From Halomicronema hongdechloris C2206 (GTDB taxonomy: Bacteria; Cyanobacteriota; Cyanobacteriia; Phormidesmidales; Phormidesmidaceae), in the NCBI RefSeq assembly GCF_002075285.3, contig NZ_CP021983.2:2520001-2552000 (forward strand): 32,000 bases of DNA. Direction: 5' to 3'. Numbering within the stretch: position 1 is the first letter of the stretch; every line of letters begins with the position of its first letter. Positions 3,298 to 32,000 of this stretch are shown piece by piece. A program made the translations under genes and the position numbers. The notes below the pieces were generated by a model. The model saw only the letters and a list, made by a program, of their open reading frames with translations, searched no databases and was not told the origin of the DNA.

Positions 3298-3311
3298 GGG
3301 AGGAGATTGTT

Positions 3312-6137: not shown

Positions 6138-6336
6138 GCGGGAAGGCTCAATCATTTATAAGATGATGTGGCTTCTTCATAATCGTCAAAAGCCTTGATT
6201 GACAGTGGTTGTAGATACTCTATTCATCTTCAATTTGATTCGTCCCACCTACTTAATAATATGACTCCAAGCAAAATGTCTGGCTGCATTTCTATCTTAG
6301 GAGGAATGCAAGTTTCTGAGGGGAAAGACTTTTATT

Positions 6337-6870
6337 TTGTTTTTTTCATCGCGAAAAGCATTTTTTAAAATCGGCCAACAACTCTCACTACTAGGGTTGA
6401 TCGCAATGCCAATCACAAGCCATTTCTTCAAAACCCTCTTTAACGCCATCCGCGATAGTGACGCCGATCCACAGTTTGTCTATCCCTTCCTACAATCCCA
6501 CCTTGATCAACTCACCAATCAACTCCCACAACACCTGAGAAATTGGGCGATCGCTACCCTTCCCACCTTCGAACCAGAACAACAATGCGACACCGCTAAC
6601 GATATCGCCAACTTTAGCCTCCTCATGCGAGGCTTCCCCCTGGGAGGCAAAGCCACCAATGTCGAAATTGCGATCGCATTAAATCGAGCCCAAAGTTGGT
6701 TGCGGCAAGTGCGAAAAAGGGAGCTAGAAGAATTGCGAGAACGCTTGAGTTCAACAACTAGAATGATCTTGAGAAGACAGTTTTATCATTTGGTAGAGGA
6801 TGAGCCGTTTGTTGAGAGCCATTTTACTGGGCAGCATTTTGTGCGATCGGGCAGTGAGTACAATTTATGA
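6337..6870 (+). pseudogene. Internally deleted, frameshifted remnant of a second TPR-CHAT gene
   Basis: From M at 6406, MPITSHFFKTLFNAIRDSDADPQFVYPFLQSHLDQL...NFSLLMRGFPLGGKATNVEIAI resembles (from memory of the family) the N-terminal module that precedes the TPRs in cyanobacterial TPR/CHAT proteins. It is joined directly to ALNRAQSWLRQV...TRMILRRQ, which aligns with the last ~60 aa of the intact CHAT protein in this window (ALNQAQQWLRNL...TIRMLLRQQ). The tail YWAAFCAIGQ-stop is present but in another frame (TAC 6825 to TGA 6855-6857), so there is a frameshift near 6815-6825. The TPR array and catalytic core are absent. Confidence 0.6.
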
Positions 6871-6992
6871 ACCTTCAAATCCTTTTCAGCGAAAACCTGA
6901 TTGAGATCACTTTCTAGTTTTGTCGGTCGCGAAGCTAGAGCGAGTTTTTTTGAGCCTGATATGTCATTTAGCCAAGGAATATAAGTATAGCA

Positions 6993-7406
6993 ATGTCACC
7001 ATACGAAGAGAATATTTTAGATTTCTATAAAATCTACGAAGAGCAACCTGAACTCTTCACCGACGACGATAGGGCTTCATTTGAGGCTCTCAAAGCAACC
7101 TTTGCCGAAGATGACAGCATTGAAAAAATTTCAGATACGATCGCTCTTTGGTGTGAAGAGCATCCCAACATTCTCAATGCTCTTCTGGAGCTTCCCCCAA
7201 GCGAGACTAGTGAGAGAGGGGCAGGAGGTCGCTCAACTCGCCTGAATCCTAAAGAGGTTCTAGGACTGTTGGATAATATTACTCGCAGTGGGCCAGCAGG
7301 TCGCCCAACTCGCTTGGATCCTGAAGAGACCTCGGAATTGTTAGATAACATCGTTCGAGAAAGTGAAACAGATTCTGGCTCCTCCTCTTCTCCCCCACAA
7401 AAATGA
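6993..7406 (+). CDS. Small acidic protein (137 aa) with two tandem 24-aa repeats; no family recognised
   Basis: ATG-initiated ORF. Acidic N-terminal half, then the repeats GAGGRSTRLNPKEVLGLLDNITRS and GPAGRPTRLDPEETSELLDNIVRE, then a Ser/Pro-rich tail. Its stop overlaps the next start (ATGA at 7403-7406), which argues for a co-translated pair. The antisense ORF 7034-7351 is treated as spurious. Confidence 0.55.
   Translation: MSPYEENILDFYKIYEEQPELFTDDDRASFEALKATFAEDDSIEKISDTIALWCEEHPNILNALLELPPSETSERGAGGRSTRLNPKEVLGLLDNITRSGPAGRPTRLDPEETSELLDNIVRESETDSGSSSSPPQK
7218..7361 (+). repeat. 72-bp tandem duplication inside the 137-aa ORF (2 copies: 7218-7289, 7290-7361)
   Basis: ggggcaggaggtcgctcaactcgcctgaatcctaaagaggttctaggactgttggataatattactcgcagt versus gggccagcaggtcgcccaactcgcttggatcctgaagagacctcggaattgttagataacatcgttcgagaa. 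The copies are in frame and roughly three quarters identical by eye. Confidence 0.9.
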
Positions 7407-8854
7407 GCAAAACTTTCTCAACTCAGAAATTATGTAACTCCAGTCTGACACTTTACGCCTTCCATCTACGTGATAACCTTAGCGAAGGCCTTCGCCAGGT
7501 ATCATCCCAAGCCTCAAGACTATGGGAGAACCTGGTGTGGTTAGGCAGTACACTGAAAATTCCTGAACTGCAGTCTTTGAGACAAAAGCTGATCTGTTAT
7601 CAAGCAGGGCAGTATCAACCGACTGCAGAGGATCAGTTAGCTTTAGGTCAACAAAGCCTTTTGCCTGAAGAAGAAGATCGTATAAACTTTCAGTTAATTG
7701 CACAAGCCGACAGTGCAAGTCTAGAACTTAAGGGATTACTTTGCCCCTTTCGTCTCCACGATGCCTACGCAATCGACCTTACCCTGTTCTCCCCAACTCC
7801 CATCACTTTGGGGCAACTCAACCAGCTTAATCCCCAAGGACTCTTGCTACCTCCACATATCCAGGCATCCTTAGGACAAACCCTATTGTTCTATGCAGAA
7901 GTCGATGCCCTCGAGAAAGATGACCGTTCGATTGCAGATGCTTGCCTAGCTCAGTTGCTTCAAAATCAGGTAATGCCTGAATTCCTCGCTGAAGGTAAAC
8001 TCCTAGGTAGCTCAATCTTTGAATATGGTTCTCTGGTACGTGATCCAGCCCAGCAATACCATATCCTGGTTTGGCTCAACCACAATCAGCTTGCTCCAGA
8101 GGTGGATGAAGTTTCAGAACGATTGCTCTATCTCCTGAACTCTCGCCATAAAATTCTTTACGCTTATGACCAGTCTCGCTGGTGCGATCGCCAGGCTAAA
8201 CAGCTTTACAGCGACCTGGAACTAAACATTGTTCAAAGATTCAACCAGATTGCTCGGTCCCCAGACCACCTACAGCAGTTTCAAACATTACTGCGGAATC
8301 AACTACCCCAAACGGCATTTCAGTATGCTCAATACTTGAGGGACCTATCAGATCACGAGACTACAATTAACACTAATCTCCAAAACTACCGTCAACAACT
8401 GGCAAAACTCGCCCGATTGCCAGGCTGCGACCTAACTTTTTTGCAAGATTTCTTAGACCTCGCTGAAAACAAATATCTCAAACAAATCCAGGTTAACCAA
8501 AGCTACCTTACTCCTGGACAGGCGCTGTTCCAACAACTTACTGAAACTATTCGAGGTTTAGCTGAATTGGAACAGACTGAGAGCGATCGATGTTTAGAGA
8601 GAACCGTTCAAGTTCTAGGTGTTGGTCTTGCGACAGGAACCATTGTTGGGGCTGGCTATAGCTACACTGAGAAGCCTTTCAAGCCTCCTTTTTCGACCAA
8701 CACTATTCATCCGTTTGTTGCTTACTTGCTATGGAGCTTCACTGCTGCCTTTATCGCTGGGGTGATTGCATACTGGCTGACTCAGCTGAATTTGCTGGTA
8801 TGGTGGTCGAATTTACGTAATCGAGGGCAAGACGAGAAAACCTTTGAAGAATGA
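7403..8854 (+). CDS. Hypothetical 483-aa protein: N-terminal globular region, Gln/Leu-rich coiled-coil, two C-terminal TM helices
   Basis: Long ORF with an ATG start that overlaps the upstream stop. Predicted TM1 is VQVLGVGLATGTIVGAGYSY (about 8606-8665). Predicted TM2 is IHPFVAYLLWSFTAAFIAGVIAYWLTQL (about 8705-8790). A short charged tail follows. No catalytic motif or named family recognised. Confidence 0.7.
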   Translation: MSKTFSTQKLCNSSLTLYAFHLRDNLSEGLRQVSSQASRLWENLVWLGSTLKIPELQSLRQKLICYQAGQYQPTAEDQLALGQQSLLPEEEDRINFQLIAQADSASLELKGLLCPFRLHDAYAIDLTLFSPTPITLGQLNQLNPQGLLLPPHIQASLGQTLLFYAEVDALEKDDRSIADACLAQLLQNQVMPEFLAEGKLLGSSIFEYGSLVRDPAQQYHILVWLNHNQLAPEVDEVSERLLYLLNSRHKILYAYDQSRWCDRQAKQLYSDLELNIVQRFNQIARSPDHLQQFQTLLRNQLPQTAFQYAQYLRDLSDHETTINTNLQNYRQQLAKLARLPGCDLTFLQDFLDLAENKYLKQIQVNQSYLTPGQALFQQLTETIRGLAELEQTESDRCLERTVQVLGVGLATGTIVGAGYSYTEKPFKPPFSTNTIHPFVAYLLWSFTAAFIAGVIAYWLTQLNLLVWWSNLRNRGQDEKTFEE

Positions 8855-9081
8855 GCTTTGAAGCTACTATTTCGAGACTTTATCAGGGAGCAATAAGTCG
8901 GAGCATAGACTGGATATTATGTACTTAAGTAAAAATTATACTCTTCGGCCCAAGCGGCTTAAGAGATAGCGCTGCCTACTTATCCCAGCTCAGGATACCG
9001 AATACCTGTCAGAGAACCCTAAGACAATGACGCGTGGCTTCCCTGCTCTGGCTGCTAAGGTGATGGCAAGAATTCCTGCTC

Positions 9082-18460: not shown

Positions 18461-18613
18461 CTAAAATGTGCCAATCAGGACTAAGAGCGTGACCGAACAG
18501 ATAAACACTAGCCCGATAGCCAAAATAGCTAACCAAGGCTCGCGATTCTTGCGGTCGAGATAGTCATTTACCTGCTTATCGTGGGGCTCAGGTCGCCAAA
18601 TCATCGGTTCCAT
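18461..18613 (-). CDS. Candidate 50-aa single-pass membrane protein (not in ORF track, <60 aa)
   Basis: Hand translation of the minus strand gives MEPMIWRPEPHDKQVNDYLDRKNREPWLAILAIGLVFICSVTLLVLIGTF-stop (TAG 18463-18461). AAGAGGA lies 6 nt upstream of ATG 18613. The layout is a charged N-terminus followed by one ~22-aa hydrophobic helix. Confidence 0.4.
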   Translation of the reverse strand: MEPMIWRPEPHDKQVNDYLDRKNREPWLAILAIGLVFICSVTLLVLIGTF

Positions 18614-19060
18614 GGTGATATCCTCTTGGGATCAGCTACTAGACATAGTGAAAGGCAGACGGAAAAAGTCAGAGGGCAGAATCAGGGTGCTTGCTAGGCA
18701 AAGAATTCGCTGATTTGGAATATCCTCATCTAACTGGCTGTGGCCATATATTCCACAAAAAATATTCAAAGAAACGCTGGTCATTGTCTTGCACGATGTA
18801 ACTATTAGTTTAATTCCCAATAATATCCATGACTGCTAATAGTCGCTGTTTCTTTATTTTTATTAAAAATAATTAGTAGTTTCATGCAGGTTAAGATCGC
18901 AGATAAAGAGCACCAGCTCTAGAAAATAATGGGTTGAGCTCATGCTTTAATCCGAGGAAATTAAGTGATCTGAACATCACAAAAACCTTTTCTGAGAGTA
19001 TACTAAACTAAGTTATGGCTGCTGTCCTAAGTAGCCAAGTAGCCCGATTCTGCCGCCGCT

Positions 19061-22726: not shown

Positions 22727-22980
22727 GCTATTAGGAGTGGGGCCTAAGTATCCAAAATCTCATCGCTGGCGGCTAGAAGCCGCGCCTATACAGAGAAAAC
22801 CCAAACCATTGTAGGCTTTCAGTGCCTATGGACCAATTCAACTCAGGGGGTGAACCCTGAGGTTTTTGCGTTGATTGTAGGCATGACGAGAGTATGTTGC
22901 TTATAGGGGTTAACCCGATCACGAACTAGGATCCCGACGACTAGATTGCTACCTCCATCAGAATCCCGAAACCGAAAACC

Positions 22981-23274
22981 CGTCATTCCAGGACAAGCGC
23001 AACGCGACCCGGAATCCAGACAGAGGGGCTATGCCAATTGCCACTATCTGGGATTACTTTCTGAGCCACTGGGGTTCGACTCCACTCACCCAGCTAAATC
23101 TTGATCACCCAGCGACAACCGCTTACCCAGCGACAACCGGTCACCGAGCGGAGTCGAGGTGACACACCACTTACCCAGCACTGCCTGGAATCCAGACAGA
23201 AGTTACGCCGTCAGCAGACAGCCTTAGGCAGAGATCCCCGAAAACTGGATTCCCGCCACCGCGGAAATGACAGG
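22981..23274. repeat. Degenerate inverted/direct repeat cluster (MITE-like scar)
   Basis: CGTCATTCC...GGAATCCAG (22981-23019) is mirrored by CTGGATTCC...GGAAATGAC (23245-23274). GGAATCCAGACAGA occurs twice in direct orientation (23011-23024, 23187-23200). ACCCAGCGACAACCG occurs twice at 18-nt period (23107-23121, 23125-23139). Confidence 0.3.
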
Positions 23275-23714
23275 AGTGAGGTCTACTCAGCAGAGTGCTC
23301 TTCTTCTCCTCCCACCGAGGGGAGCAGGGGAGGTGTCAGGGCTGTCTCATTTTAATAAAGCCCCGTCTCACTCTGAAGGCAATCGTTCTGGGTAAAAGTC
23401 AATTATTTGGGGTCAGCCCCTCATTGATGAGGGTTGAGGGGTGATCAATTGGAGTCTCACCCCCAATTGCCCAGGCTCTGAGGGCGTCAGTTTGCCTACG
23501 GAGCCAACCGTCTATCGTGGCCGATAGCGGCAGCCATCATGGTTAAGACACCGTTGTCGAAGGGCGACCGAAATGCCCTATGCAAATTGATTGCAGCCAT
23601 ATCTGTCGCGGTGGCCGATAAAAAAGTCTCGAGTCTTGAGCCACTTTATGAAATCTTTGCCAGGATCAGGGGAAGACTGATCCCTAATGTGAAGTCCTCA
23701 GCGTCTCGGTCCCT

Positions 23715-25031
23715 ATGTCTGACACGGTCATCCAGGTCGAAAATCTCGGCAAGAAATATATCATCGGTCATCAACAGGCAGGGGCCTATCAGTATACGGC
23801 GCTGCGGGATGTGATCAGTGATGGGGCTAAGGCGCTGCTGCAGCGGCTGCGGCATCCGGGAAAACCGGTCAATCCAGAGGTGCGGGAAGAGTTCTGGGCG
23901 CTGAAGGATGTGTCGTTTGAGGTAAAGCGCGGTGAAGTGGTCGGTATCATTGGCCGCAACGGCGCCGGGAAGTCGACCCTACTGAAGATTTTGAGCCGCA
24001 TCACGGAACCCACCACGGGGCGGGTGCGGATTAAGGGACGGGTAGCCAGCCTGCTGGAGGTGGGTACCGGCTTCCACCCAGAACTCACCGGGCGAGAAAA
24101 TATTTTTCTCAATGGTGCGATTCTCGGCATGAGCAAAACCGAGATCAATCGCAAGTTCGATGAAATTGTCGAATTTGCTGAGATCGCCAGGTTTTTAGAT
24201 ACGCCGGTGAAGCGATATTCGTCGGGGATGTATGTGCGCCTAGCGTTTGCGGTGGCCGCGCATCTAGAGCCGGAGATTTTAGTCGTGGATGAAGTGCTGG
24301 CTGTGGGAGATGCAGCATTTCAGAAAAAGTGTTTAGGGAAGATGGGAGATGTTGCCACAAGAGAAGGGAGAACGGTCTTATTCGTCAGTCATCAAATGGC
24401 TGCCGTAAAAAGTTTATGCTCTAGAGTTCTAGTTTTGGGATCTGGGCAGCTAAAAATTGATGACGACCCTCAATCAGGAATTAATTTTTATGTCAAAGAC
24501 TTAGATATTTCTGCCAACCAGGATGCCATTTGTGAGTTAAGAAGAACTGGGAATGGCAGGATACAAATCGTGGATTTCTGGATCGAAAACCTGCACGGAG
24601 AGAAAGTCAGTACCGCTTTATCAGGCAGCGATATCATCTTAAAATTTAAATACGAAATAAAAACATCTGAGCCCTTAAGGAATATTTCCTTAGGATTCAG
24701 TATACATACCAGCCTAGGAGACTCGTTATCAATTTTATATAGTGATTATATGGGAGCATCATTTTCTGACTTGCCATCAAATGGACAAATCAGTTGCAAA
24801 ATCAAGGATATACAGCTCTCAAAGGGAAGATATTACATAGGTGCTCGAATCCTAGTTAATGATATCGAGGCCGATTGGCCTCGAGGTTACATTGGATTCA
24901 TCGATATAGAAGACGGTTATTTCTATTCCAAAGGGAGATCTCCTCACAGTGGAATAGGACCTATTTTAATTAGAGGAGAATGGAGTGCATTAGAACCAAA
25001 AGGACTCAAGTTTACTGATTCTGTCACATGA
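23715..25031 (+). CDS. wzt: Polysaccharide/O-antigen ABC exporter ATP-binding protein (Wzt/TagH type) with C-terminal Wzt_C-like carbohydrate-binding domain
   Basis: Motifs: FWALKDVSFEVKRGEVVGIIGRNGAGKSTLLKIL (Walker A), SLLEVGTGFHPELTGRENI, YSSGMYVRLAFAVA (signature), ILVVDEVLAVGD (Walker B) and LFVSHQM (H-loop). The ~170-aa beta-rich C-terminal extension (IQIVDFWIENLHGEKV...GRYYIGARI...) is typical of Wzt proteins. Confidence 0.9.
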   Translation: MSDTVIQVENLGKKYIIGHQQAGAYQYTALRDVISDGAKALLQRLRHPGKPVNPEVREEFWALKDVSFEVKRGEVVGIIGRNGAGKSTLLKILSRITEPTTGRVRIKGRVASLLEVGTGFHPELTGRENIFLNGAILGMSKTEINRKFDEIVEFAEIARFLDTPVKRYSSGMYVRLAFAVAAHLEPEILVVDEVLAVGDAAFQKKCLGKMGDVATREGRTVLFVSHQMAAVKSLCSRVLVLGSGQLKIDDDPQSGINFYVKDLDISANQDAICELRRTGNGRIQIVDFWIENLHGEKVSTALSGSDIILKFKYEIKTSEPLRNISLGFSIHTSLGDSLSILYSDYMGASFSDLPSNGQISCKIKDIQLSKGRYYIGARILVNDIEADWPRGYIGFIDIEDGYFYSKGRSPHSGIGPILIRGEWSALEPKGLKFTDSVT

Positions 25032-25774
25032 AAAACAGTTCTATTTTATCAAGAAAAGCCTTAAAGTATCTCCAAATACTGACGTCAGTTGTTCATCCAA
25101 GCGGATATTTTATATACCCCAAAAAATACTATGCTTATCATAAAATATCTTTTTCTCAGGAGGGTGAAGATCTGATTTTAGATAGAATATTTTATTCTCA
25201 AAAAAATGGATTCTACGTAGATGTAGGAGCGCATCATCCACAAAGATTCTCAAACACCTATTACTTTTACTTAAAGGGTTGGCATGGCATTAATATTGAC
25301 GCTATGCCAGGTAGCATGGAGCTTTTCAAAAAGATAAGGCCAAGAGATATAAATATTGAGATTCCAATTTTTAGCAAGTCTCAAGTGTTGACATATTATC
25401 AATTTAATGAACCAGCTCTGAATGGCTTCTCTGAAGAAATATCCACTCAACGTAATAAACATGAAAAATATAAAATCATCTCCACAAAAAAACTAAAAAC
25501 AGAAAGATTGTCTGTCGTTCTTGAGAAGAATATTTTAAATGAATCACAAGTGATTGACTTTATGAATATTGATGTTGAAGGTCTCGACTATGAAGTATTA
25601 AAATCTAATGACTGGAATAGATTCAGACCAAAAGTTTTATTAGTAGAAGATTTATCAAGTCAAAACATCAGGCAATTTGAAAACTCTAAGGTTTACAATT
25701 TTCTATTTAAGGAAGACTATAAAATATATGCAAACCTGGCAAAGACCTCTATTTTTTTAGACTCGAGAACTTAG
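25028..25774 (+). CDS. FkbM-family SAM-dependent methyltransferase
   Basis: GFYVDVGAHHPQRFSNTYYFYLKGWHGINIDAMPGSMELFKKIRPRD fits the FkbM/Methyltransf_21 pattern. The start overlaps the wzt stop (ATGA 25028-25031). Confidence 0.8.
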   Translation: MKNSSILSRKALKYLQILTSVVHPSGYFIYPKKYYAYHKISFSQEGEDLILDRIFYSQKNGFYVDVGAHHPQRFSNTYYFYLKGWHGINIDAMPGSMELFKKIRPRDINIEIPIFSKSQVLTYYQFNEPALNGFSEEISTQRNKHEKYKIISTKKLKTERLSVVLEKNILNESQVIDFMNIDVEGLDYEVLKSNDWNRFRPKVLLVEDLSSQNIRQFENSKVYNFLFKEDYKIYANLAKTSIFLDSRT

Positions 25775-25778
25775 TTAA

Positions 25779-26705
25779 ATGGATCTTGACATACCTGTTG
25801 TTTTGCTAATATTTAATCGGCCTGAATTGACGAAGAAGGTTTTCAATATAGTAGCTAATGTGAAGCCAAGACAATTATTTATTGTGGCAGATGGACCACT
25901 TAAATCAGGAGACATTCGTCTTTGCGAAGAAGCTAGATGTATTGTGAACTTAATAAATTGGGATTGTGAGTTTAAGATTAACTTTTCTGACACCAATCTT
26001 GGCTGTTGTAGGCGGGTATCGAGTGGCTTAGATTGGGTATTCTCTCAAGTTGAAGAAGCGATCATACTAGAAGATGATTGTGTACCAGATCCCTCATTTT
26101 TCAGTTTCTGTCAATCACTTCTCAATTACTATCGCCACGATGAAAGAGTTTGGGTAATCAGTGGCAATAATTTCCAAAATGGGCAATGGAGAGGTGATGG
26201 TAGTTACTATTTCTCTCGATATAATCACTGTTGGGGTTGGGCAACCTGGAGACGAGCATGGCAAAATTTTCAACATGAGCTTGATAGTTGGCCAAAGCTA
26301 AAAGATTCAGGCTTATTAAAATCCGTACTGCTCGATCCTGTGGAATACAAATATTGGTCTAATATATTTGAACGTCTTTACTTAGAGAACAAACCAGATT
26401 CTTGGGCATATCGTTGGACATATTCATGTTGGATCAATAATGCTTTAAGTATTCTTCCCAATGTAAATCTTGTTAGCAATATTGGATTTGGTGAAAATTC
26501 GACTCACACAGCAGATCCGGATAGCCATCTAGCTAATATACCTGCCAAAGAGTTAAGAGGGATAATACATCCCCCTTTTCTAATTAGGGACGAAAAGGCA
26601 GATCAATATACTTTCGATCATACTTTTAATGGAATTGAGCTCAGAAGAAGCAATCGACTTTTCTTCCGCCTTCGAAGAAAAGTGTTAAATTTATTGTCTA
26701 TCTGA
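25779..26705 (+). CDS. Putative GT-A-fold glycosyltransferase
   Basis: The N-terminal IPVVLLIFNRPELTKKVF...LFIVADGP and the DxD-like ILEDDCVPD suggest a GT-A/GnT-I-like fold. Family assignment is tentative. The gene starts 4 nt after the previous gene. Confidence 0.5.
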   Translation: MDLDIPVVLLIFNRPELTKKVFNIVANVKPRQLFIVADGPLKSGDIRLCEEARCIVNLINWDCEFKINFSDTNLGCCRRVSSGLDWVFSQVEEAIILEDDCVPDPSFFSFCQSLLNYYRHDERVWVISGNNFQNGQWRGDGSYYFSRYNHCWGWATWRRAWQNFQHELDSWPKLKDSGLLKSVLLDPVEYKYWSNIFERLYLENKPDSWAYRWTYSCWINNALSILPNVNLVSNIGFGENSTHTADPDSHLANIPAKELRGIIHPPFLIRDEKADQYTFDHTFNGIELRRSNRLFFRLRRKVLNLLSI

Positions 26706-26857: not shown

Positions 26858-27751
26858 ATGATCGAAACATCATCTTTTCATACGCAAAGAAATCAGCTTG
26901 AATATTTGAACATAGGGTGTGGTCATCGCTTTCATCACGCCTGGCAAAATATTGATTTTATCTCGAGTAATGACAAAGTAAGTCCCTGTGATTTGAGAGA
27001 TGGAATACCATTTAGAGATTCATTCTTTCAAGTCGTTTATCATTCTCATCTATTAGAGCATTTTTCTAAGGAAAGTGCTCTTCGCCTGACAAAAGAATGT
27101 TTTCGAGTCATAAAGCCTAGAGGTATTATCAGGATTGTTGTTCCGGATCTAGAGGCAATTGTCAATGGCTATCTTTTTGCATTAGATCAAGTATTATCTG
27201 GTAACCTATCATGGGATTCAAACTATGAGTGGATGCTTCTTGAATTGTTTGACCAGATGATACGAAATTCACCTGGCGGTGGCATCAAGTCTTACTTTCA
27301 ACGTAAAGATATACCTAATGAAAATTTTGTGGTTGAGCGAATGGGAAGTGAGATAAAAAATATTGCTGAAGAACAAAAGAAAGTATACCTACATAAGAAC
27401 ATGCAAAATCAAAGAATTTGTAGTCCCAAAAAGATTTTACGGTTAGTTCATAGATTTTTCCGATATCCTATCTATAGAAGAGAGTATTTATTAAAACTTA
27501 TTTTAGGCCAGGATTATAAGTTTTTGGAAATTGGTAGATTTCGTCAAAGCGGTGAAATCCATCAATGGATGTATGACAGATATTCACTTCGAAAACTCTT
27601 GAATAACTGTGGATTCATTGGCATAGTTCAGCGCACTGCTAAAGAGAGCTACATTCCTAATTGGGAAAGCTTTAACTTAGACACGGAGCCTGATGGAAGC
27701 ACATATAAACCATATTCCTTATTTATGGAAGCTATTAAGCCTGGCTTGTAA
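26858..27751 (+). CDS. Class I SAM-dependent methyltransferase
   Basis: Motif I is LNIGCGHRF. Post-I/II region: FQVVYHSHLLEHFSKESALRLTKECFRVIKPRGIIRIVVPD. Confidence 0.8.
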   Translation: MIETSSFHTQRNQLEYLNIGCGHRFHHAWQNIDFISSNDKVSPCDLRDGIPFRDSFFQVVYHSHLLEHFSKESALRLTKECFRVIKPRGIIRIVVPDLEAIVNGYLFALDQVLSGNLSWDSNYEWMLLELFDQMIRNSPGGGIKSYFQRKDIPNENFVVERMGSEIKNIAEEQKKVYLHKNMQNQRICSPKKILRLVHRFFRYPIYRREYLLKLILGQDYKFLEIGRFRQSGEIHQWMYDRYSLRKLLNNCGFIGIVQRTAKESYIPNWESFNLDTEPDGSTYKPYSLFMEAIKPGL

Positions 27752-27770: not shown

Positions 27771-29018
27771 ATGAAAATCTTACATATTAATAAGTCTGAT
27801 ATTAAAGGAGGAGGAGCAATTGCAGGATATCGATTACACCAATCTCTACTTCGGAAGAGCACTATTTCAACCTTATTAGTTGATGAAATAAACATTGATG
27901 CCAATAATATTAGCCTAATCAACAGGCGGCGCTATGTTGAGATGATTAGTAGCCGTTTATTCTGGTACCTAGGATTAAATTATATCAATATAACTAGTAC
28001 TAGTCAAATCACTGATCATTCCCTTTACACCCAGGCTGATATTCTAAATTTTCATAACCTTCATGGCAGTTACTTTAATTATTTAGCGATTCCAAAGTTG
28101 ACGGCTAAAAAACCTGCTGTTTATACACTTCATGACATGTGGGGCTTTACCGGTCACTGTGCCTATAGCTTCGATTGCCAACGCTGGAAAATAGGGTGTG
28201 GTAACTGCCCTTACCTCGACACCTATCCCTCAATTGCCCGTGACAATACTCACATTGAGTGGAAACTAAAACAATGGGTCCACAACCGCTCTAACCTCAC
28301 CATTGTGACTCCGAGTCAGTGGCTTGCTAACTTGGTTCAAAAGAGCTTACTCAGTCGGTTTTCCATACATCATATCCCTCATGGTTTAGATATTAATTGT
28401 TACCGACCACTCGAGCCGCAAATTTGTCGTCAAGCACTTAATCTCCCTGACCACAAAACTGTGATATTACTTGTTGCTCAGAATCTAAGAGATCCACGAA
28501 AAGGTTCAGATCTGCTGATAGAAGCATTAAAATATCTCCCAAGCTCTCTAACCCAAGATTTAGTACTTTTAGTAGTAGGTGAGGGAGGTGAAATATTCGA
28601 AGAGATCACGGATATTCAAACGTTGTCCTTAGGCTATATCGGCGGTGATCGTCTTAAAGCACTTGCCTATTCTGCTGCCGATATTTTTATTTTCCCAACT
28701 CGCGCTGATATTTTTGGTTTAGTCCTTCTAGAAAGTATGGCCTGTGGCACTCCTATGGTTTCCTTCGATGTCGGGGGTGTTCCTGAATTGGTACGTCCTG
28801 GCCAAACCGGGCTCTTAGCTCGTCCTGAAGATCCCAAGGATCTCGCCGCTAAGATCGTCAAACTGCTTGAAGATGATGACCTGCGTCAGCGGATGGCGAA
28901 AACCTGTCGCGACGTCGCCGTGGCCGAATATTCCATCGAACTGCAAGCCGATCGCTACATTGCCCTCTACCGCCAAGTCATCGACGAGTTCCACAATCGT
29001 CATACTAAATTCCACTAA
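27771..29018 (+). CDS. GT4-family (group 1) glycosyltransferase
   Basis: Track ORF 27693-29018. I prefer ATG 27771 (MKILHINKSDIKGGGA...), which is the typical GT4 N-terminus and does not overlap the previous gene. The C-terminal domain, FIFPTRADIFGLVLLESMACGTPMVSFDVGGVPELV, carries the E-x7-E-type motif. Confidence 0.9.
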   Translation: MKILHINKSDIKGGGAIAGYRLHQSLLRKSTISTLLVDEINIDANNISLINRRRYVEMISSRLFWYLGLNYINITSTSQITDHSLYTQADILNFHNLHGSYFNYLAIPKLTAKKPAVYTLHDMWGFTGHCAYSFDCQRWKIGCGNCPYLDTYPSIARDNTHIEWKLKQWVHNRSNLTIVTPSQWLANLVQKSLLSRFSIHHIPHGLDINCYRPLEPQICRQALNLPDHKTVILLVAQNLRDPRKGSDLLIEALKYLPSSLTQDLVLLVVGEGGEIFEEITDIQTLSLGYIGGDRLKALAYSAADIFIFPTRADIFGLVLLESMACGTPMVSFDVGGVPELVRPGQTGLLARPEDPKDLAAKIVKLLEDDDLRQRMAKTCRDVAVAEYSIELQADRYIALYRQVIDEFHNRHTKFH

Positions 29019-29152
29019 TTCGCTGACTTAATATAGACAAGATATTCAACTGCCTAAGCTATCTTTGGAGACATACCTGTAAGCTCACCTTTGGGTAACC
29101 ACTCTTCAGTAGGTCTCAATAACTTTGGTAACAAGTAGTTGGAATTAATTAA

Positions 29153-29647
29153 CTATTCATCTGCAGTTTTAAGGACAGCTGCATACAATTGACTGCTTAC
29201 CCGGAATTTAGCTCTCTCAATTAATTGATCCATCATAACTTTAACTGATGGGATAAGACCGTTACCTTTAGCTTGCAATAAAACACCTAACAATCCCGTG
29301 ATACTGAGTCCATAATTTTCAGCTAATACTCTACCACGACGCTCATCCATCAACAGTAAGTCTGCTTTGAGTTCCAGTGCCAGCGCAATCGCCTCAGCTT
29401 CACCCAAATCAATGTCATTTTGCCCCCTTTGCAGATCAATCACACTTTGAGTATTGGCAACCGTTTGAGCTTGAATCCAAGATAAGGATTGTACTGCGAC
29501 TGCACCAGGTACAGCTGGATTCACAGATACCATTTCGTTGTAAACAGCTACTGGAATGATAACCGTCTCATAAAGTTGGTGTAACAGATCTAACTGACCA
29601 ATGGCAGCGAGATTAGTAATAGGTGAAGTATCACTGACAACGATCAC
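29153..29647 (-). CDS. DUF3368 PIN-like nuclease (putative type II toxin)
   Basis: MIVVSDTSPITNLAAIGQLDLLHQLYETVIIPVAVYNEM matches the DUF3368/COG2405 N-terminus. GTG start overlaps the upstream stop (GTGA). Confidence 0.8.
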   Translation of the reverse strand: MIVVSDTSPITNLAAIGQLDLLHQLYETVIIPVAVYNEMVSVNPAVPGAVAVQSLSWIQAQTVANTQSVIDLQRGQNDIDLGEAEAIALALELKADLLLMDERRGRVLAENYGLSITGLLGVLLQAKGNGLIPSVKVMMDQLIERAKFRVSSQLYAAVLKTADE

Positions 29648-29889
29648 AGCAGGTCTAATGACTGTAAAGTTTTAATGTCTGACTGAAAATCTTCTTCATC
29701 ATAGTTAATACACAGTCCTCGTTTTGCCAATTCGTCCTGAAATTGAAGAACCGTCAATCCAGTCCATGCACGGACCTTACCGCTACTAATTTTCTGTTGT
29801 TTATACAACATGATGGCGATTTCTAGCTTCAATTCATCCTCAGTCATTTTGGTTGCTTCGAGGATATTATCAGGGATGACAACGCTCAT
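29644..29889 (-). CDS. UPF0175-family protein (putative antitoxin partner of DUF3368)
   Basis: 81 aa. ...ELKLEIAIMLYKQQKISSGKVRAWTGLTVLQFQDELAKRGL is typical of UPF0175/COG2886. There is a 4-nt overlap with the toxin gene. Confidence 0.8.
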   Translation of the reverse strand: MSVVIPDNILEATKMTEDELKLEIAIMLYKQQKISSGKVRAWTGLTVLQFQDELAKRGLCINYDEEDFQSDIKTLQSLDLL

Positions 29890-29942: not shown

Positions 29943-30098
29943 GTTGTAGCAGCGGCCGCTGATAACACCACCATTCGCCTCGATCTCGACAATGAGCCCC
30001 AGCCCGATGCCTTGCTGCGCATTGAGGATGCCTGCGGTGGGCAGTCTCGTGTCAGTGATGATGACTATGTCGAGGAGGCTCCGGAGCTAATCGTTTGA
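29943..30098 (+). pseudogene. Uma2-family endonuclease fragment (central part)
   Basis: The frame is open after TAG 29940-29942 and reads VVAAAADNTTIRLDLDNEPQPDALLRIEDACGGQSRVSDDDYVEEAPELIV-stop (TGA 30096-30098). This matches the central Uma2 motifs (NEPQPD, APELIVE) but has no N-terminal part or start codon. Confidence 0.6.
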
Positions 30099-30150
30099 GG
30101 ATATCGTCTCGGATGTAGTCAGCAATGTGCATAGGCAGGCAGTAAAAATT

Positions 30151-30456
30151 TTAGCTGGCTTTTTGGTGTTGGCGTTGTTGCAGAAATTCAGCGAAATCGC
30201 GCACTTCTGCGACTAGGTCGGCGGGTAGAGTACTCAGAATTTCTAAAACCCTGGCACGAATGATTTCTTGCTCTAGTTGGATATCTGAGCTTTCAAGGGT
30301 GAGGACTGCGGTAGATTCGCCAATAGTGTCAATGAACTCGACTTCAAAGCCCTGACCATCGGCATAGCAGTGAACCACAGCACCTTGAGTGTTTTTTGAA
30401 AGTCCGTGATCGGGTATGTCGTGGGTGAGGGTAACAACATCTAGCTCTCTAATCAC
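30151..30456 (-). CDS. DUF4926-like protein with DUF2281-like C-terminal tail
   Basis: Track ORF 30151-30525. The likely start is GTG 30456, giving (M)IRELDVVTLTHDIPDHGLSKNTQGAVVHCYADGQGFEVEF, a DUF4926 pattern. The C-terminus ILSTLPADLVAEVRDFAEFLQQRQ resembles the DUF2281 antitoxin motif. Confidence 0.55.
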   Translation of the reverse strand: MIRELDVVTLTHDIPDHGLSKNTQGAVVHCYADGQGFEVEFIDTIGESTAVLTLESSDIQLEQEIIRARVLEILSTLPADLVAEVRDFAEFLQQRQHQKAS

Positions 30457-30835
30457 GATGAACCTCTGAATTGGGCTTAAAGGGGCGAGCAGTAATAAAA
30501 CGAGGGGAATCTGTTCCAATGTCAATGATCCAGACTGTCAGAATAGTGACGGTGCGATCGCTGGGAGTATGCAAATCACCGATGATGACATACTTGGTAC
30601 CGTGAACTGCGTCTTCACCGAGCCAAAACTCGTCGGGCAGCGGATCGTCAAAATCATTGGCTATCCAATATGGGTCATCTTTGTGAAGCCCAGGAATGCG
30701 TGCTCTGGGAGCAGGTTAGGGCGTTTTTTGGTGCAGGAAGGCGGTGAAGTCTAGGACTTCTTGCTGTTGGGCAGGGGTGAGGGCGCGAACTTGCTCTAGT
30801 AGGGCTTGCTCTATGGTGGCCTGCTTCATACTCAT
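30449..30835 (-). pseudogene. Composite TA remnant: DUF2281-like antitoxin interrupted by an in-frame TAA and fused to a DUF6883-like C-terminal fragment
   Basis: Hand translation: ATG 30835 (AGGAGGA 4 nt upstream) gives MSMKQATIEQALLEQVRALTPAQQQEVLDFTAFLHQKTP-TAA (30718-30716). The same frame continues PAPRARIPGLHKDDPYWIANDFDDPLPDEFWLGED (the usual end of such antitoxins), then AVHGTKYVIIGDLHTPSDRTVTILTVWIIDIGTDSPRFITARPF (DUF6883-like), ending at TAG 30451-30449. Confidence 0.45.
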
Positions 30836-31352
30836 GGAATCCTCCTAGAGTGAGGGCTTCGACTCAATTATGGGACAAGTTCAGGGCTATGGATTTGCCA
30901 TGGCTTCATCTTTGTGATTTTAGACATGGCCGGGAGTAGCCTGCCGCGCAGCTAACCCTCTTTACTCGGCTAGGGCTGCCATCGACCTGAAAGCCTTGTA
31001 AGTCAAGCCTCTAGGCGCTCCTTAAAGCCCCAGACCTAGAATATCTTTCACAAGGTTTACTAAAAATCACAAATTCCTCACACGAGAGTTTGGTTCATGC
31101 GTACTATTATTTTGACAGATGCTGAGTCTATAGTATCCGCCATCAGGGAAAATGCTCTATCTGCGTTACTTACGCTTACGACGGCTCTTCTTGAGTTTCT
31201 CTGGCGGGGTTTCGTAGAGCCTACGATCTATATGACAAGAAAAACGCCTAAGTAGCTGGGCTGGATCAAACTTAGAATGAGCGACTGAGGCGTAACCCTT
31301 GATCAGAGGGAGTTTGACGCTTTGTGAAGAGGATACAGTGTTTTACAGATAA

Positions 31353-31625
31353 TTGCGTTCTCCTACTTATCGCCGCAACGGAGTGCAGGAATATATTGTC
31401 TGGCAGGTCGCTGACCGCACCGTGAATTGGTTCAGCCTGCAGGGCGGGCGATATGTACTCCTGACGCCAGATGCCACTGGCATCCTAGAAAGTCGCATCT
31501 TTCCAGGATTGCGGCTGAACAGCACAGCGCTGATTGACGGCAACTTGGCTGATGCGATCGCTGATGTGCAGGCAGCCATGGCAACCGTTGCCCATCAGGA
31601 GTTTGTGCATTACCTGGCCCAGTAA
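31353..31625 (+). pseudogene. Uma2-family endonuclease fragment (C-terminal part)
   Basis: ...TYRRNGVQEYIVWQVADRTVNWFSLQGGRYVLL...ESRIFPGLRL is the typical Uma2 C-terminal half. The frame opens right after TAA 31350-31352 and has no proper start. It complements the fragment at 29943-30098. Confidence 0.6.
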
Positions 31626-31692
31626 CGATCCCCGACCTGATCGCCATTGTCTCTGATCAGGGCATCCTGGTAGTGTTGCCCCGGACCAAACC

Positions 31693-32000
31693 ATGGCTGA
31701 CTCGAGTACTGAAGCCGTCTATATCATCATTCCGGTCCACAACCGCAAGACCACGACACTCACATGCCTGCAACATCTGCAGCAACAGGGCGATCTAGAG
31801 AGATTTCAAGTGGTGGTTGTCGATGATGGCTCAACCGATGGCACTAGCGAAGTCATTCATCTGCAGTATCCTCAGGTGCATCTGCTTCAAGGAGATGGCC
31901 ATCTCTGGTGGGCCGGAGCGACCAAGCTGGGTATGGAATATGCCTATGGGCAGGGGGCGGAGTATTTTGTGTGGTTGAACGACGATACGCTGCCAGAAAG
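31693..32000 (+). CDS. GT2-family glycosyltransferase, 3'-partial (runs off the window)
   Basis: Hand translation from ATG 31693: MADSSTEAVYIIIPVHNRKTTTLTCLQHLQQQGDLERFQVVVVDDGSTDGTSEVIHLQYPQVHLLQGDGHLWWAGATKLGMEYAYGQGAEYFVWLNDDT. This contains the classic GT2 N-terminal motifs (IPVHN, VVDDGSTDGT, LNDD). No stop before nt 32000. Confidence 0.8.
   Translation, partial: MADSSTEAVYIIIPVHNRKTTTLTCLQHLQQQGDLERFQVVVVDDGSTDGTSEVIHLQYPQVHLLQGDGHLWWAGATKLGMEYAYGQGAEYFVWLNDDTLPE

What the first reader, a model, noticed from the sequence alone, without database searches (positions are those of the whole stretch)
23715..25031. Mosaic wzt: recombination breakpoint inside the gene separates a host-like ATPase core from an AT-rich carbohydrate-binding domain
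Seen: GC of sampled lines falls within one gene, from 35/60 (23941-24000) and 34/60 (24241-24300), to 27/60 and 26/60 (24301-24420), to 19/60 (24601-24660). The shift begins just after the Walker B region (LVVDEVLAVGD). The H-loop and the whole C-terminal Wzt_C-like domain share the composition of the downstream methyltransferase and glycosyltransferase genes. Established: in E. coli O8/O9a-type systems the Wzt C-terminal domain recognises the chain-terminating (methyl or phospho-methyl) cap added by a dedicated methyltransferase, so the two co-vary. Inference: homologous recombination in the conserved NBD swapped the substrate-recognition domain together with the cap and repeat-unit enzymes. 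That would be a serotype-like switch, plausibly driven by phage or grazer pressure.
Basis: partly seen in the sequence, partly recalled or inferred. Interest (0 to 1): 0.65.

Follow-up and report, generated by a model that had tools for sequence, protein, structure and literature searches.

The report
Recombinant glycan-exporter gene in a cyanobacterium
The ATPase gene (wzt) of a surface-polysaccharide exporter in Halomicronema hongdechloris is a natural chimera: its front is native DNA, while its sugar-recognising back end and the neighbouring sugar-modifying genes are an AT-rich cassette that differs in the closest known relative, a familiar kind of serotype-like swap seen here with the junction inside the gene.

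Summary
The window is Halomicronema hongdechloris C2206. In wzt (23715-25031), synonymous-site GC (GC3) falls from 0.66 to 0.35. The best change-point is after codon 187 (nt 24276; support 24255-24345; permutation p<=0.0005). The low-GC3 part matches the four downstream genes (GC3 0.29-0.39); 11 host-like genes average 0.655.

The decisive evidence comes from an uncultured relative (L001-L003).
- It shares the leader and the 5' part of wzt at 87-96% nt identity, and the ATPase domain (NBD) residues 1-205 are 97% identical.
- Its carbohydrate-binding domain is only 25% identical.
- It has a non-homologous adjacent methyltransferase and diverged glycosyltransferases (60% and 76% aa).
- High identity returns inside the GT4 gene, where GC3 rises again at about nt 28833.

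Maximum chi-square tests place breakpoints at codons 170-174 and 218/219 (p<=0.001), inside the invariant signature/Walker B stretch.

The drop is not a general property of the family. In 75 other wzt genes the median NBD-to-CBD GC3 drop is 0.05, and only 2 reach 0.31. The binding-domain type co-varies with the adjacent gene.

Cap chemistry, direction, timing and the selective driver remain inferred. It is a new member of a known kind, comparable to E. coli O8/O9a Wzt modularity and the P. syringae TET operon exchange.

The parts
22980..23714 (+). Non-coding leader upstream of wzt. No wzm gene is present. Patches are conserved with the relative L001.
   Evidence: There is no ORF of 90 aa or more on the + strand in frame with a wzm. 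tblastn with three Wzm proteins finds nothing in the window. Similarity to L001 is 85-91% nt in patches 22980-23027, 23245-23277, 23311-23398, 23444-23533 and from 23608. Left-hand synteny with L001 ends at about 22980.
23715..25031 (+). wzt: ABC-transporter ATPase with a C-terminal carbohydrate-binding domain (438 aa). The ORF is intact.
   Evidence: Pfam ABC_tran (8e-24) and Wzt_C (5.9e-12, above the gathering score). The best solved-structure match by sequence is full-length Aquifex aeolicus Wzt 8dku/7k2t, E 2.5e-68. An AlphaFold model (pLDDT 84) matches 7k2t/8dku over 430-438 columns, E 2.5e-38.
23715..24275 (+). Host-like 5' part of wzt: Walker A, Q-loop and signature motif (codons 1-187).
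   Evidence: GC3 is 0.66, close to host genes at 0.655. Identity to L001 is 87-96% nt, and 97% aa over residues 1-205.
24224..24370 (+). Breakpoint zone inside the NBD, from the signature motif YSSGM through Walker B and the D-loop to just before the H-loop.
   Evidence: The GC3 change-point is after codon 187, support 180-210. Maximum chi-square breaks lie at codons 170-174 (W against L001/L085) and 218/219 (W against L001/L004), each p<=0.001. Identical-codon use between W and L001 falls from 116/160 (codons 1-165) to 16/38 (codons 171-210), Fisher p=0.00055. Codons 160-199 are identical in all six aligned sequences and the alignment has no gaps through the zone.
24276..25031 (+). AT-rich 3' part of wzt: H-loop, C-terminal NBD helices and the Wzt_C carbohydrate-binding domain ('type A').
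   Evidence: GC3 is 0.35. From codon 230 to the end, identity is 25% aa to L001 but 65% to Leptothoe L004 and 54% to the Leptolyngbya BL0902-type L085. There is no nt similarity to L001 after 24399.
25028..25774 (+). FkbM-family methyltransferase that overlaps the wzt stop codon. It is the candidate chain-terminating or capping enzyme paired with the type-A CBD.
   Evidence: Pfam Methyltransf_21, 2.2e-18. GC3 is 0.29. Homologues sit directly after wzt in L004 (59%) and L085 (56%). In L001 and L088 the position is taken by a non-homologous Methyltransf_24-like protein, and in L089 by a TylF-like methyltransferase.
25779..26705 (+). Glycosyltransferase-like protein (308 aa, weak GNT-I match), shared but diverged between cassettes.
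   Evidence: Pfam GNT-I 6.9e-4, below the cutoff. Identity is 60% aa and 72% nt to the L001 counterpart, against 85-97% in the flanks. GC3 is 0.30.
26858..27751 (+). Class I SAM methyltransferase (297 aa), specific to this cassette.
   Evidence: Pfam Methyltransf_11, 1.1e-6. It has no homologue at E<1e-5 in the L001, L085, L087, L088 or L089 cassettes. GC3 is 0.31.
27771..29018 (+). GT4 glycosyltransferase containing the right-hand junction of the cassette at about nt 28700-28850.
   Evidence: Glycos_transf_1, 7e-33. The GC3 change-point is after codon 354 (nt about 28833), 0.35 to 0.63, p<=0.001. Identity to L001 is 57-75% at the 5' end and 86-96% from about 28800. Overall aa identity is 76%. 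The probable start is 27771, not the ORF's 27693, judging from homology with L001.

Best explanation
wzt of Halomicronema hongdechloris is a recombinant gene at the left edge of an exchangeable cassette of about 4.5 kb for an ABC-transporter-exported surface glycan.

Homologous recombination with a diverged allele crossed over in two places. One is inside the near-invariant signature/Walker B stretch of the ATPase domain (nt about 24224-24370). The other is inside the conserved C-terminal domain of the GT4 glycosyltransferase (nt about 28700-28850). The recombination replaced:
- the last quarter of the NBD;
- the whole carbohydrate-binding domain;
- the adjacent FkbM methyltransferase;
- a second methyltransferase;
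- most of two glycosyltransferases.

The crossover lies where all alleles encode the same amino acids, so any hybrid ATPase stays functional while substrate recognition changes together with the enzymes that build and probably cap the polymer.

Shown here: the compositional junctions, the discordant ancestry of the two gene halves, replacement of the cassette relative to the closest known relative, and co-variation of CBD type with the neighbouring gene.

Inferred: that the FkbM enzyme methylates the non-reducing end and the CBD reads that cap, as in E. coli O8/O9a; that the product is O-antigen or a related envelope glycan; and that diversifying selection by phage or grazers drives the exchange.
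For: Composition:
- GC3 falls from 0.66 to 0.35 after codon 187, p<=0.0005.
- Host genes have GC3 0.655 +/- 0.034 and 0/292 of their windows are <=0.40.
- Cassette genes have GC3 0.29-0.39.
- GC3 returns from 0.35 to 0.63 inside GT4 at about 28833, p<=0.001.

Ancestry:
- P0096 (L001-L003, three independent metagenome assemblies) has an NBD 97.5% identical and a C-domain 25-29% identical.
- nt identity to L001 is 86.6% over 23608-24399, then nothing until the diverged GT308 (72%) and GT4 (75%), then 85-89% again from 29954.
- Maximum chi-square breakpoints have p<=0.001.
- Synonymous codon identity between W and L001 drops to background in codons 171-210 although the protein is identical there, Fisher p=0.00055.

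Homologous rather than illegitimate recombination:
- The alignment is colinear, in frame and gap-free across the junction.
- No IS element, integrase or flanking repeats were found.

Not a property of the family:
- In 75 other wzt genes the median GC3 drop is 0.05, with 2 of 75 at >=0.31.

Recurrence:
- L001 and L085 have significant GC3 change-points in the same part of the gene, after codons 196 and 214, but carry different CBD types. L089 shows a weaker GC decline with yet another CBD.

Functional coupling:
- Type-A CBD goes with FkbM in W, L004 and L085. Type-B goes with a Methyltransf_24-like protein in L001 and L088. L089 has a TylF-like methyltransferase.
- Over 82 loci, 15 of 22 pairs with similar CBDs have a homologous next gene, against 26 of 2797 pairs with dissimilar CBDs.

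Precedent:
- The Wzt CBD binds the terminal modification (PMC7685785; PMC7820976).
- The P. syringae wzt-wbdD-wbdA operon is exchanged by recombination while the wzm side stays conserved.
Against: - Only one close relative is available, so the direction cannot be fixed. It could be this genome, the relative, or both, and there could be one event or several. In codons 171-210, L001 rather than W looks like the odd sequence. This suggests at least one of the two mapped breakpoints belongs to the L001 lineage.
- No donor is known. The best C-domain match is only 65% identical.
- nt identity between diverged alleles in the NBD is about 75-80%, with exact runs of at most 23 nt. That is poor substrate for RecA unless the real donor was closer.
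- wzm is not adjacent. It is encoded elsewhere in the genome (P0327), so function of this wzt with that Wzm is assumed.
- The co-variation statistic is not corrected for shared ancestry of the loci.
- No chemistry or expression data are available.
Confidence: 0.8

Rival explanations
1. The mosaic is real but old. The type-A cassette and its junction were already present in the ancestor of this lineage. The type-A CBD is the commonest type among cyanobacterial homologues. On this reading only the L001 lineage swapped recently. The low GC in H. hongdechloris would then be a relic, or be maintained by repeated gene conversion from AT-rich alleles, rather than a recent serotype switch in this strain.
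For: Most of the best 120 homologues carry a C-domain 40-65% identical to this one, that is, type A. In codons 171-210, W is closer to L085, L087 and L089 than L001 is to any of them, so the codon 170-174 breakpoint may belong to L001. L085, a different genus, has the same type-A CBD, the FkbM gene and the same kind of GC3 drop.
Against: A GC3 of 0.33-0.35 in a genome whose genes sit at 0.655 should have ameliorated over the time in which synonymous sites between genera became saturated. The persistence of this low value argues for recent arrival in each high-GC genome. GT308 (60% aa) and GT4 (76% aa) are far more diverged between W and L001 than the flanks. This shows the alleles predate the split, but it does not show which one is resident.
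Confidence: 0.25
2. There was no recombination. The gene was inherited vertically, and the C-terminal domain and downstream genes are AT-rich for intrinsic reasons such as amino-acid composition, weak codon selection or regulatory selection for AT-rich DNA.
For: Surface-polysaccharide loci are AT-rich in many bacteria (PMC7685785). Significant GC3 change-points are seen in the same part of the gene in L001 and L085, with a weaker decline in L089.
Against: The drop is at third codon positions while GC2 is flat. In 75 other wzt genes the median drop is 0.05, including 50 with NBD GC3 >=0.55, of which only 3 drop by more than 0.25. The relative with a 97% identical NBD has a 25% identical CBD and a non-homologous neighbouring gene, which vertical descent cannot produce.
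Confidence: 0.04
3. The feature is an assembly artefact. AT-rich DNA from a contaminant in the non-axenic culture was joined to Halomicronema DNA within the conserved ABC ATPase sequence.
For: The genome paper reports a hybrid 454/Illumina/PacBio assembly, chimeric PacBio reads and manual contig joining (PMC6416890). The junction lies in a sequence conserved across phyla.
Against: Two junctions would be needed, since GC3 and identity to L001 return inside GT4. Three independent metagenome assemblies of a relative show the same architecture, with high-GC flanks and a low-GC cassette starting inside wzt. So do the Leptolyngbya BL0902-type contigs from several sequencing runs. The reading frames are intact throughout.
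Confidence: 0.02
4. The cassette was inserted by site-specific or illegitimate recombination (an integron-like, transposon or phage-borne element) that happened to fuse a foreign C-terminal domain onto a truncated native wzt.
For: Integron-like shuffling was discussed for the P. syringae CPA locus. A toxin-antitoxin pair and a disrupted Uma2 gene lie just downstream of the cassette.
Against: No integrase, IS element, attC-like site or flanking direct or inverted repeats were found. Homology runs colinear and gap-free through the junction. No match to the C-domain was found in viral contigs, and the cassette is not found on known plasmids.
Confidence: 0.04

Closest known systems
E. coli O8/O9a and Klebsiella pneumoniae O12 Wzt: NBD plus a serotype-specific carbohydrate-binding domain that recognises the capped non-reducing end
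   Same: The two-domain architecture is the same (ABC_tran plus Wzt_C). The NBD is conserved and the C-domain is highly variable. A methyltransferase gene sits next to wzt. The C-domain type co-varies with the neighbouring modifying enzyme.
   Different: No biochemical data exist here. The adjacent enzyme is an FkbM-family methyltransferase, not a WbdD kinase-methyltransferase or a Kdo transferase. The host is a cyanobacterium. wzm is not linked. Here the natural junction between alleles can be mapped inside the NBD.
Pseudomonas syringae CPA locus 'TET operon' (wzt-wbdD-wbdA) exchanged by recombination or HGT (Jayaraman et al. 2020, PMC7820976)
   Same: The variable block begins at wzt and includes the terminating methyltransferase and the elongating glycosyltransferase. 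Its phylogeny disagrees with that of the flanks. Recombination between related species is proposed.
   Different: In P. syringae the conserved side runs up to and including wzm, and the whole of wzt is treated as variable. Here wzm is elsewhere and the crossover lies within wzt, leaving three quarters of the NBD native. The right-hand junction lies inside a GT4 gene.
Aquifex aeolicus WzmWzt (PDB 7k2t, 8dku, 6m96)
   Same: This is the best sequence and fold match for both domains: E 2.5e-68 by sequence and E 2.5e-38 by fold, over 430-438 columns.
   Different: Identity is only 30-31% over the full length (42% in the NBD). No evolutionary mosaicism has been described for it.
Enterobacterial O-antigen (rfb) clusters: low-GC cassettes exchanged by recombination in conserved flanking genes (galF/gnd)
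   Same: A low-GC cassette sits in a higher-GC genome (PMC7685785). There are conserved flanks, diverged alleles in close relatives, and a gradient of synonymous divergence towards the cassette. W-L001 third-position identity runs from 0.87 to 0.63 to 0.37 along the NBD.
   Different: Here the flanks are parts of pathway genes themselves (wzt NBD and the GT4 C-terminal domain) rather than housekeeping neighbours.

Membership tests
Wzt (glycan ABC-exporter ATPase with C-terminal carbohydrate-binding domain) | ABC nucleotide-binding domain with Walker A, Q-loop, signature, Walker B and H-loop | tested here: met
   PF00005 at 8.2e-24. Motifs are located at codons 80-88, 113-120, 168-172, 188-199 and 224-228.
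Wzt (glycan ABC-exporter ATPase with C-terminal carbohydrate-binding domain) | C-terminal Wzt_C beta-sandwich domain | tested here: met
   PF14524 scores 46.2 bits against a cutoff of 30.4. The model shows an all-beta region at residues 283-399 with pLDDT mostly 84-97. The fold match to full-length A. aeolicus Wzt covers both domains.
Wzt (glycan ABC-exporter ATPase with C-terminal carbohydrate-binding domain) | Partner permease Wzm (ABC2_membrane) encoded, usually adjacent | tested here: inconclusive
   It is not adjacent and not in the 32-kb window. A Wzm from H. hongdechloris C2206 exists elsewhere in the genome (P0327, 91% identical to the L089 Wzm). The pairing has not been demonstrated.
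Wzt (glycan ABC-exporter ATPase with C-terminal carbohydrate-binding domain) | The CBD binds a chain-terminating modification made by a dedicated enzyme | not testable with these tools
   Only indirect evidence is available: an FkbM methyltransferase overlaps the wzt stop codon, and CBD type co-varies with the adjacent gene.
Intragenic recombinant (mosaic) gene | Significant compositional change-point at synonymous sites | tested here: met
   GC3 0.66 to 0.35 after codon 187, p<=0.0005.
Intragenic recombinant (mosaic) gene | Segments have different nearest relatives, with a statistically supported breakpoint | tested here: met
   The N-terminal half is nearest to P0096 (97.5%) and the C-terminal half to P0002 (64%). 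Maximum chi-square values are 162 and 102, p<=0.001.
Intragenic recombinant (mosaic) gene | Colinear homologous junction (homologous rather than illegitimate recombination) | tested here: met
   The six-sequence alignment is gap-free through codons 1-213, and codons 160-199 are identical in all six sequences. No repeats or mobile-element genes are present.
Intragenic recombinant (mosaic) gene | Parental (donor) sequence identified | tested here: not met
   The best C-domain relative is only 65% identical in aa and 68% in nt. The exhaustive representative search gave at most 42% to cluster representatives.
Serotype-like exchangeable glycan cassette (ABC-transporter-dependent pathway) | Alternative gene sets at the same locus in close relatives, between conserved flanks | tested here: met
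   Comparing W with L001: flanks 85-96% nt, CBD 25% aa, methyltransferases non-homologous, GT308 60% aa, GT4 76% aa. Only one relative is available.
Serotype-like exchangeable glycan cassette (ABC-transporter-dependent pathway) | The product is a surface glycan whose structure differs between alleles | not testable with these tools
   No structural or serological data are available. Whether the product is O-antigen or exopolysaccharide is unknown. In Synechocystis, Wzm/Wzt mutants altered EPS but not O-antigen (PMC4390846).

The most novel reading that the evidence does not exclude
The invariant signature/Walker B/D-loop stretch of Wzt may serve as a recurrent recombination anchor. Through it, filamentous cyanobacteria, and sporadically other phyla, would repeatedly exchange 'reader plus writer' modules: the carbohydrate-binding domain together with the cap-forming methyltransferase and glycosyltransferases. 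The generic transporter core (Wzm and most of the NBD) would stay native and could even be unlinked. Junctions in different lineages fall within the same part of the gene. GC3 change-points lie after codon 187 in W, 196 in L001 and 214 in L085. Similar intragenic GC3 drops occur in a Methylococcaceae MAG (L023) and an Anaerolineae MAG (L039). A second anchor lies inside the GT4 C-terminal domain. If this is right, wzt would be a natural, evolution-tested template for engineering glycan exporters by CBD swapping.
Probability: 0.45. Interest if true: 0.55.

Novelty: new member of a known kind. Interest (0 to 1): 0.45.

Why it matters
It gives a sequence-level picture of how a polysaccharide ABC exporter changes substrate in nature. 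The crossover sits where all alleles encode identical amino acids, so the ATPase stays intact while the recognition domain and the enzymes that make its ligand move together. This supports, from an independent phylum, the model from E. coli and Klebsiella that the Wzt C-domain and the chain-terminating enzyme form a matched pair. It also flags FkbM-type, Methyltransf_24-type and TylF-type methyltransferases as candidate capping enzymes in cyanobacteria. The locus marks a likely surface-antigen polymorphism in Halomicronema and Nodosilinea-like cyanobacteria, which is relevant to phage and grazer interactions. It does not reveal a new mechanism.

Tried and rejected
- A homologue search with the C-domain alone returned a single 130-aa fragment, a limitation of the word index, and was uninformative.
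- The exhaustive search of cluster representatives with the C-domain showed a large, diverse family (1159 hits). The best representatives were only 42% identical, so no donor was found.
It returned only relatives at 79% identity or less and not the source genome. I reused those loci as a control set.
- One metagenome scan with a degenerate lineage-specific pattern gave a single locus, L089.
- Exact-sequence look-ups of this Wzt and of the H. hongdechloris Wzm were not on record. The genomic position of wzm is therefore unknown.
- Neither the longest exact nucleotide matches nor mean pairwise identity peak at the breakpoint zone. I dropped the idea that the junction marks a local maximum of nucleotide identity.
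- Rfam found nothing at 18-32 kb. No repeats or mobile-element genes bound the cassette.
- The C-domain has no match in viral contigs, and the cassette is not on known plasmids.
- I considered assembly chimera, amino-acid composition and site-specific insertion and rejected them. The reasons are given under the rival explanations.
Full report
**Source and anatomy**

The 438-aa product of ORF 23715-25031 (+) is 100% identical to an ABC transporter protein of Halomicronema hongdechloris C2206 (P0001). That genome is a 5.58-Mb, 54.6% GC single circular scaffold from a hybrid assembly (PMC6416890).

The protein has an ABC ATPase domain (residues 63-194) and a Wzt_C carbohydrate-binding domain (residues 276-380, above Pfam's gathering score). 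Its best solved relative by sequence is full-length Aquifex aeolicus Wzt (8dku/7k2t, E 2.5e-68). An AlphaFold model (pLDDT 84) matches those chains over both domains.

Four genes follow on the same strand:
- an FkbM-family methyltransferase (25028-25774, overlapping the wzt stop codon);
- a 308-aa glycosyltransferase-like protein (25779-26705);
- a class I methyltransferase (26858-27751);
- a GT4 glycosyltransferase (27771-29018).

No wzm lies upstream. Region 22727-23714 is non-coding, and tblastn with three Wzm proteins finds nothing in the window. The genome does encode a Wzm elsewhere (P0327).

**The observation**

The shift is at synonymous sites. GC3 goes from 0.6-0.8 to 0.2-0.4 while GC2 stays flat.

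A two-segment likelihood model puts the change after codon 187 (nt 24276). Support is codons 180-210, GC3 goes from 0.66 to 0.35, and 0 of 2000 permutations reach the observed value. Walker B is codons 188-193, so the shift begins at Walker B rather than after it.

Eleven genes at 9-23 kb have GC3 0.655 +/- 0.034, and none of their 292 sixty-codon windows is <=0.40. The four downstream genes have GC3 0.29-0.39.

**Is the drop intrinsic to Wzt?**

No. I reused 75 wzt-with-CBD loci from many phyla, fetched in a genome scan. Their median GC3 drop from NBD to CBD is 0.05. Only 5 exceed 0.25 and only 2 reach 0.31. Of 50 loci with NBD GC3 >=0.55, only 3 drop by more than 0.25.

**Discordant ancestry**

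Among the 120 best homologues, the N-terminal 200 residues are closest to P0096 (97.5%). The C-domain of P0096 is only 25-29% identical. The C-domain is closest to P0002 from Leptothoe sp. PORK10 BA2 (64-65%), whose NBD is 85% identical.

P0096 is encoded on three independently assembled metagenome contigs, L001-L003. These are syntenic with the window:

| Window region | Identity to L001 |
|---|---|
| Leader patches | 85-91% nt |
| 23608-24399 | 86.6% nt |
| 24400-25951 | no similarity |
| GT308 (25952-26497) | 72% nt |
| GT4 (27771-29052) | 75% nt |
| 29954-30094 | 89% nt |
| 31368-31998 | 85% nt |

At the protein level, W compared with L001 gives the following:

| Component | W vs L001 |
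|---|---|
| Wzt residues 1-205 | 97% aa |
| Wzt C-domain | 25% aa |
| Adjacent methyltransferase | not homologous |
| GT308 | 60% aa |
| MT297 | no counterpart |
| GT4 | 76% aa |

L001 also drops in GC inside wzt.

**Breakpoints**

Maximum chi-square on informative sites places a break between codons 218 and 219 for W against L001/L004 (chi-square 162). For W against L001/L085 the break is between codons 170 and 174 (chi-square 102). Both have p<=0.001.

Between W and L001, the fraction of identical-amino-acid codons that use the same codon is 116/160 in codons 1-165. It is 16/38, the background level, in codons 171-210, although the protein is almost identical there (38 of 40 residues; Fisher p=0.00055).

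The alignment is gap-free through the zone and codons 160-199 are identical in all six aligned sequences. No repeats, IS elements or integrases bound the cassette. The exchange is therefore best explained by homologous recombination within nt about 24224-24370. Because the amino acids there are the same in every allele, any crossover yields an unchanged ATPase core.

In codons 171-210, L001 rather than W is the outlier among all sequences. The codon-170 break may therefore belong to the L001 lineage and the codon 190-220 junction to this genome. That would mean at least two events.

**Right-hand edge**

Inside GT4, GC3 rises from 0.35 to 0.63 after codon 354 (nt about 28833, p<=0.001). Identity to L001 climbs from 57-75% to 86-96%. 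An internal patch at about 28113-28290 has both higher GC3 and higher identity. The low-GC cassette is thus about 4.5 kb and is bounded on both sides by junctions inside conserved domains of pathway genes.

**Recurrence and coupling**

L085 (Leptolyngbya sp. BL0902 type) has the same intragenic GC3 change-point pattern as L001 (L085 0.64 to 0.33), but with a different C-domain type. L089 (a Nodosilinea-like contig with wzm adjacent) shows a weaker GC decline across wzt and carries yet another C-domain.

The C-domain type tracks the gene directly after wzt:
- Type A (W, L004, L085; 52-65% identity) goes with an FkbM methyltransferase (56-59%).
- Type B (L001, L088; 35%) goes with a 252-254-aa Methyltransf_24-like protein (43%).
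- L089 carries a TylF-like O-methyltransferase.

Over 82 loci, 15 of 22 pairs with similar CBDs have a homologous next gene, against 26 of 2797 pairs with dissimilar CBDs. This figure is not corrected for relatedness.

The pattern fits the established model that the Wzt CBD reads a terminal modification installed by a dedicated enzyme (PMC7685785; PMC7820976). The chemistry here is inferred.

**Comparison with known systems and verdict**

The closest precedents are the modular Wzt proteins of E. coli O8/O9a and K. pneumoniae O12. The other close precedent is the P. syringae CPA locus, where the wzt-wbdD-wbdA operon is exchanged while the wzm side stays congruent with the core genome. The low GC of O-antigen clusters is well known.

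What is particular here:
- the junction maps inside the NBD;
- wzm is unlinked;
- a matching junction lies inside GT4;
- the pattern recurs in several high-GC filamentous cyanobacteria.

This is a well-supported new example of a known evolutionary process, not a new kind of system.

Rivals:
- Vertical inheritance is contradicted.
- An assembly chimera is very unlikely given two junctions and independent assemblies of relatives.
- Site-specific insertion has no support.
- The live alternative concerns timing and direction. The mosaic in this strain may be old, with the recent swap in the L001 lineage.

Noticed in passing
window 22727-23714; genome-wide: wzt has no adjacent wzm in this genome or in the relative L001. 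In L004, L087 and L089, wzm lies upstream of wzt (directly upstream in L004 and L089; one gene lies between in L087). A Wzm of H. hongdechloris (P0327, 91% identical to the L089 Wzm) is encoded somewhere outside the window. The roughly 1-kb leader has patches conserved with L001, an 18-nt tandem repeat at 23107-23142, and a 75-nt insertion (23533-23607) relative to L001.
   Followed up: partly
window 27771-29018: The GT4 gene is itself mosaic. Patches with higher GC3 (0.55 at about 28131-28370, and 0.63 from about 28833) are broadly the same stretches that are highly identical to L001. The longest ORF starts at 27693, but homology suggests the true start is 27771.
   Followed up: partly
window 30094-31368: About 1.27 kb is present here but absent from L001 (L001 13100-13153). 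It splits a Uma2-family gene, leaving a remnant ORF at 31353-31625. The inserted DNA contains a 124-aa ORF on the minus strand (30151-30525).
   Followed up: no
window 29153-29889 (-): A PIN/DUF3368 protein (29153-29647) and an overlapping 81-aa ORF (29644-29889) look like a toxin-antitoxin pair. L001 has a DUF2442 gene at this position instead.
   Followed up: no
window 1-8900: There are other compositional islands. At 1-6137 the GC is 35-40% (GC3 0.31-0.33), with a 1095-aa and a 956-aa ORF. By reading the translations these look like TPR/CHAT-like and STAND NTPase-like proteins, but I did not run a domain search on them. At 6.3-8.9 kb the GC is about 45%. This part of the chromosome is a patchwork of compositions.
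   Followed up: no
L023 (Methylococcaceae MAG), L039 (Anaerolineae MAG), L058, L007: A few unrelated genomes show the same large intragenic GC3 drop in wzt (0.70 to 0.27, 0.82 to 0.38, 0.51 to 0.20 and 0.52 to 0.25). L023 and L039, and more mildly L007, also have AT-richer DNA downstream. This suggests the same kind of junction arises outside cyanobacteria.
   Followed up: partly
wzt codons 1-55 and 171-210 (window 23715-23879, 24225-24344) compared with L085: Synonymous codon identity between W and the Leptolyngbya BL0902-type allele is unusually high in two short stretches (0.74 and 0.60, against a background of 0.35-0.5). This hints at further small exchanged tracts or shared codon bias. 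The sites are too few to decide.
   Followed up: partly
window 18501-19000: There is a local GC dip to 0.40 in an otherwise 52-58% GC region. I did not examine it.
   Followed up: no
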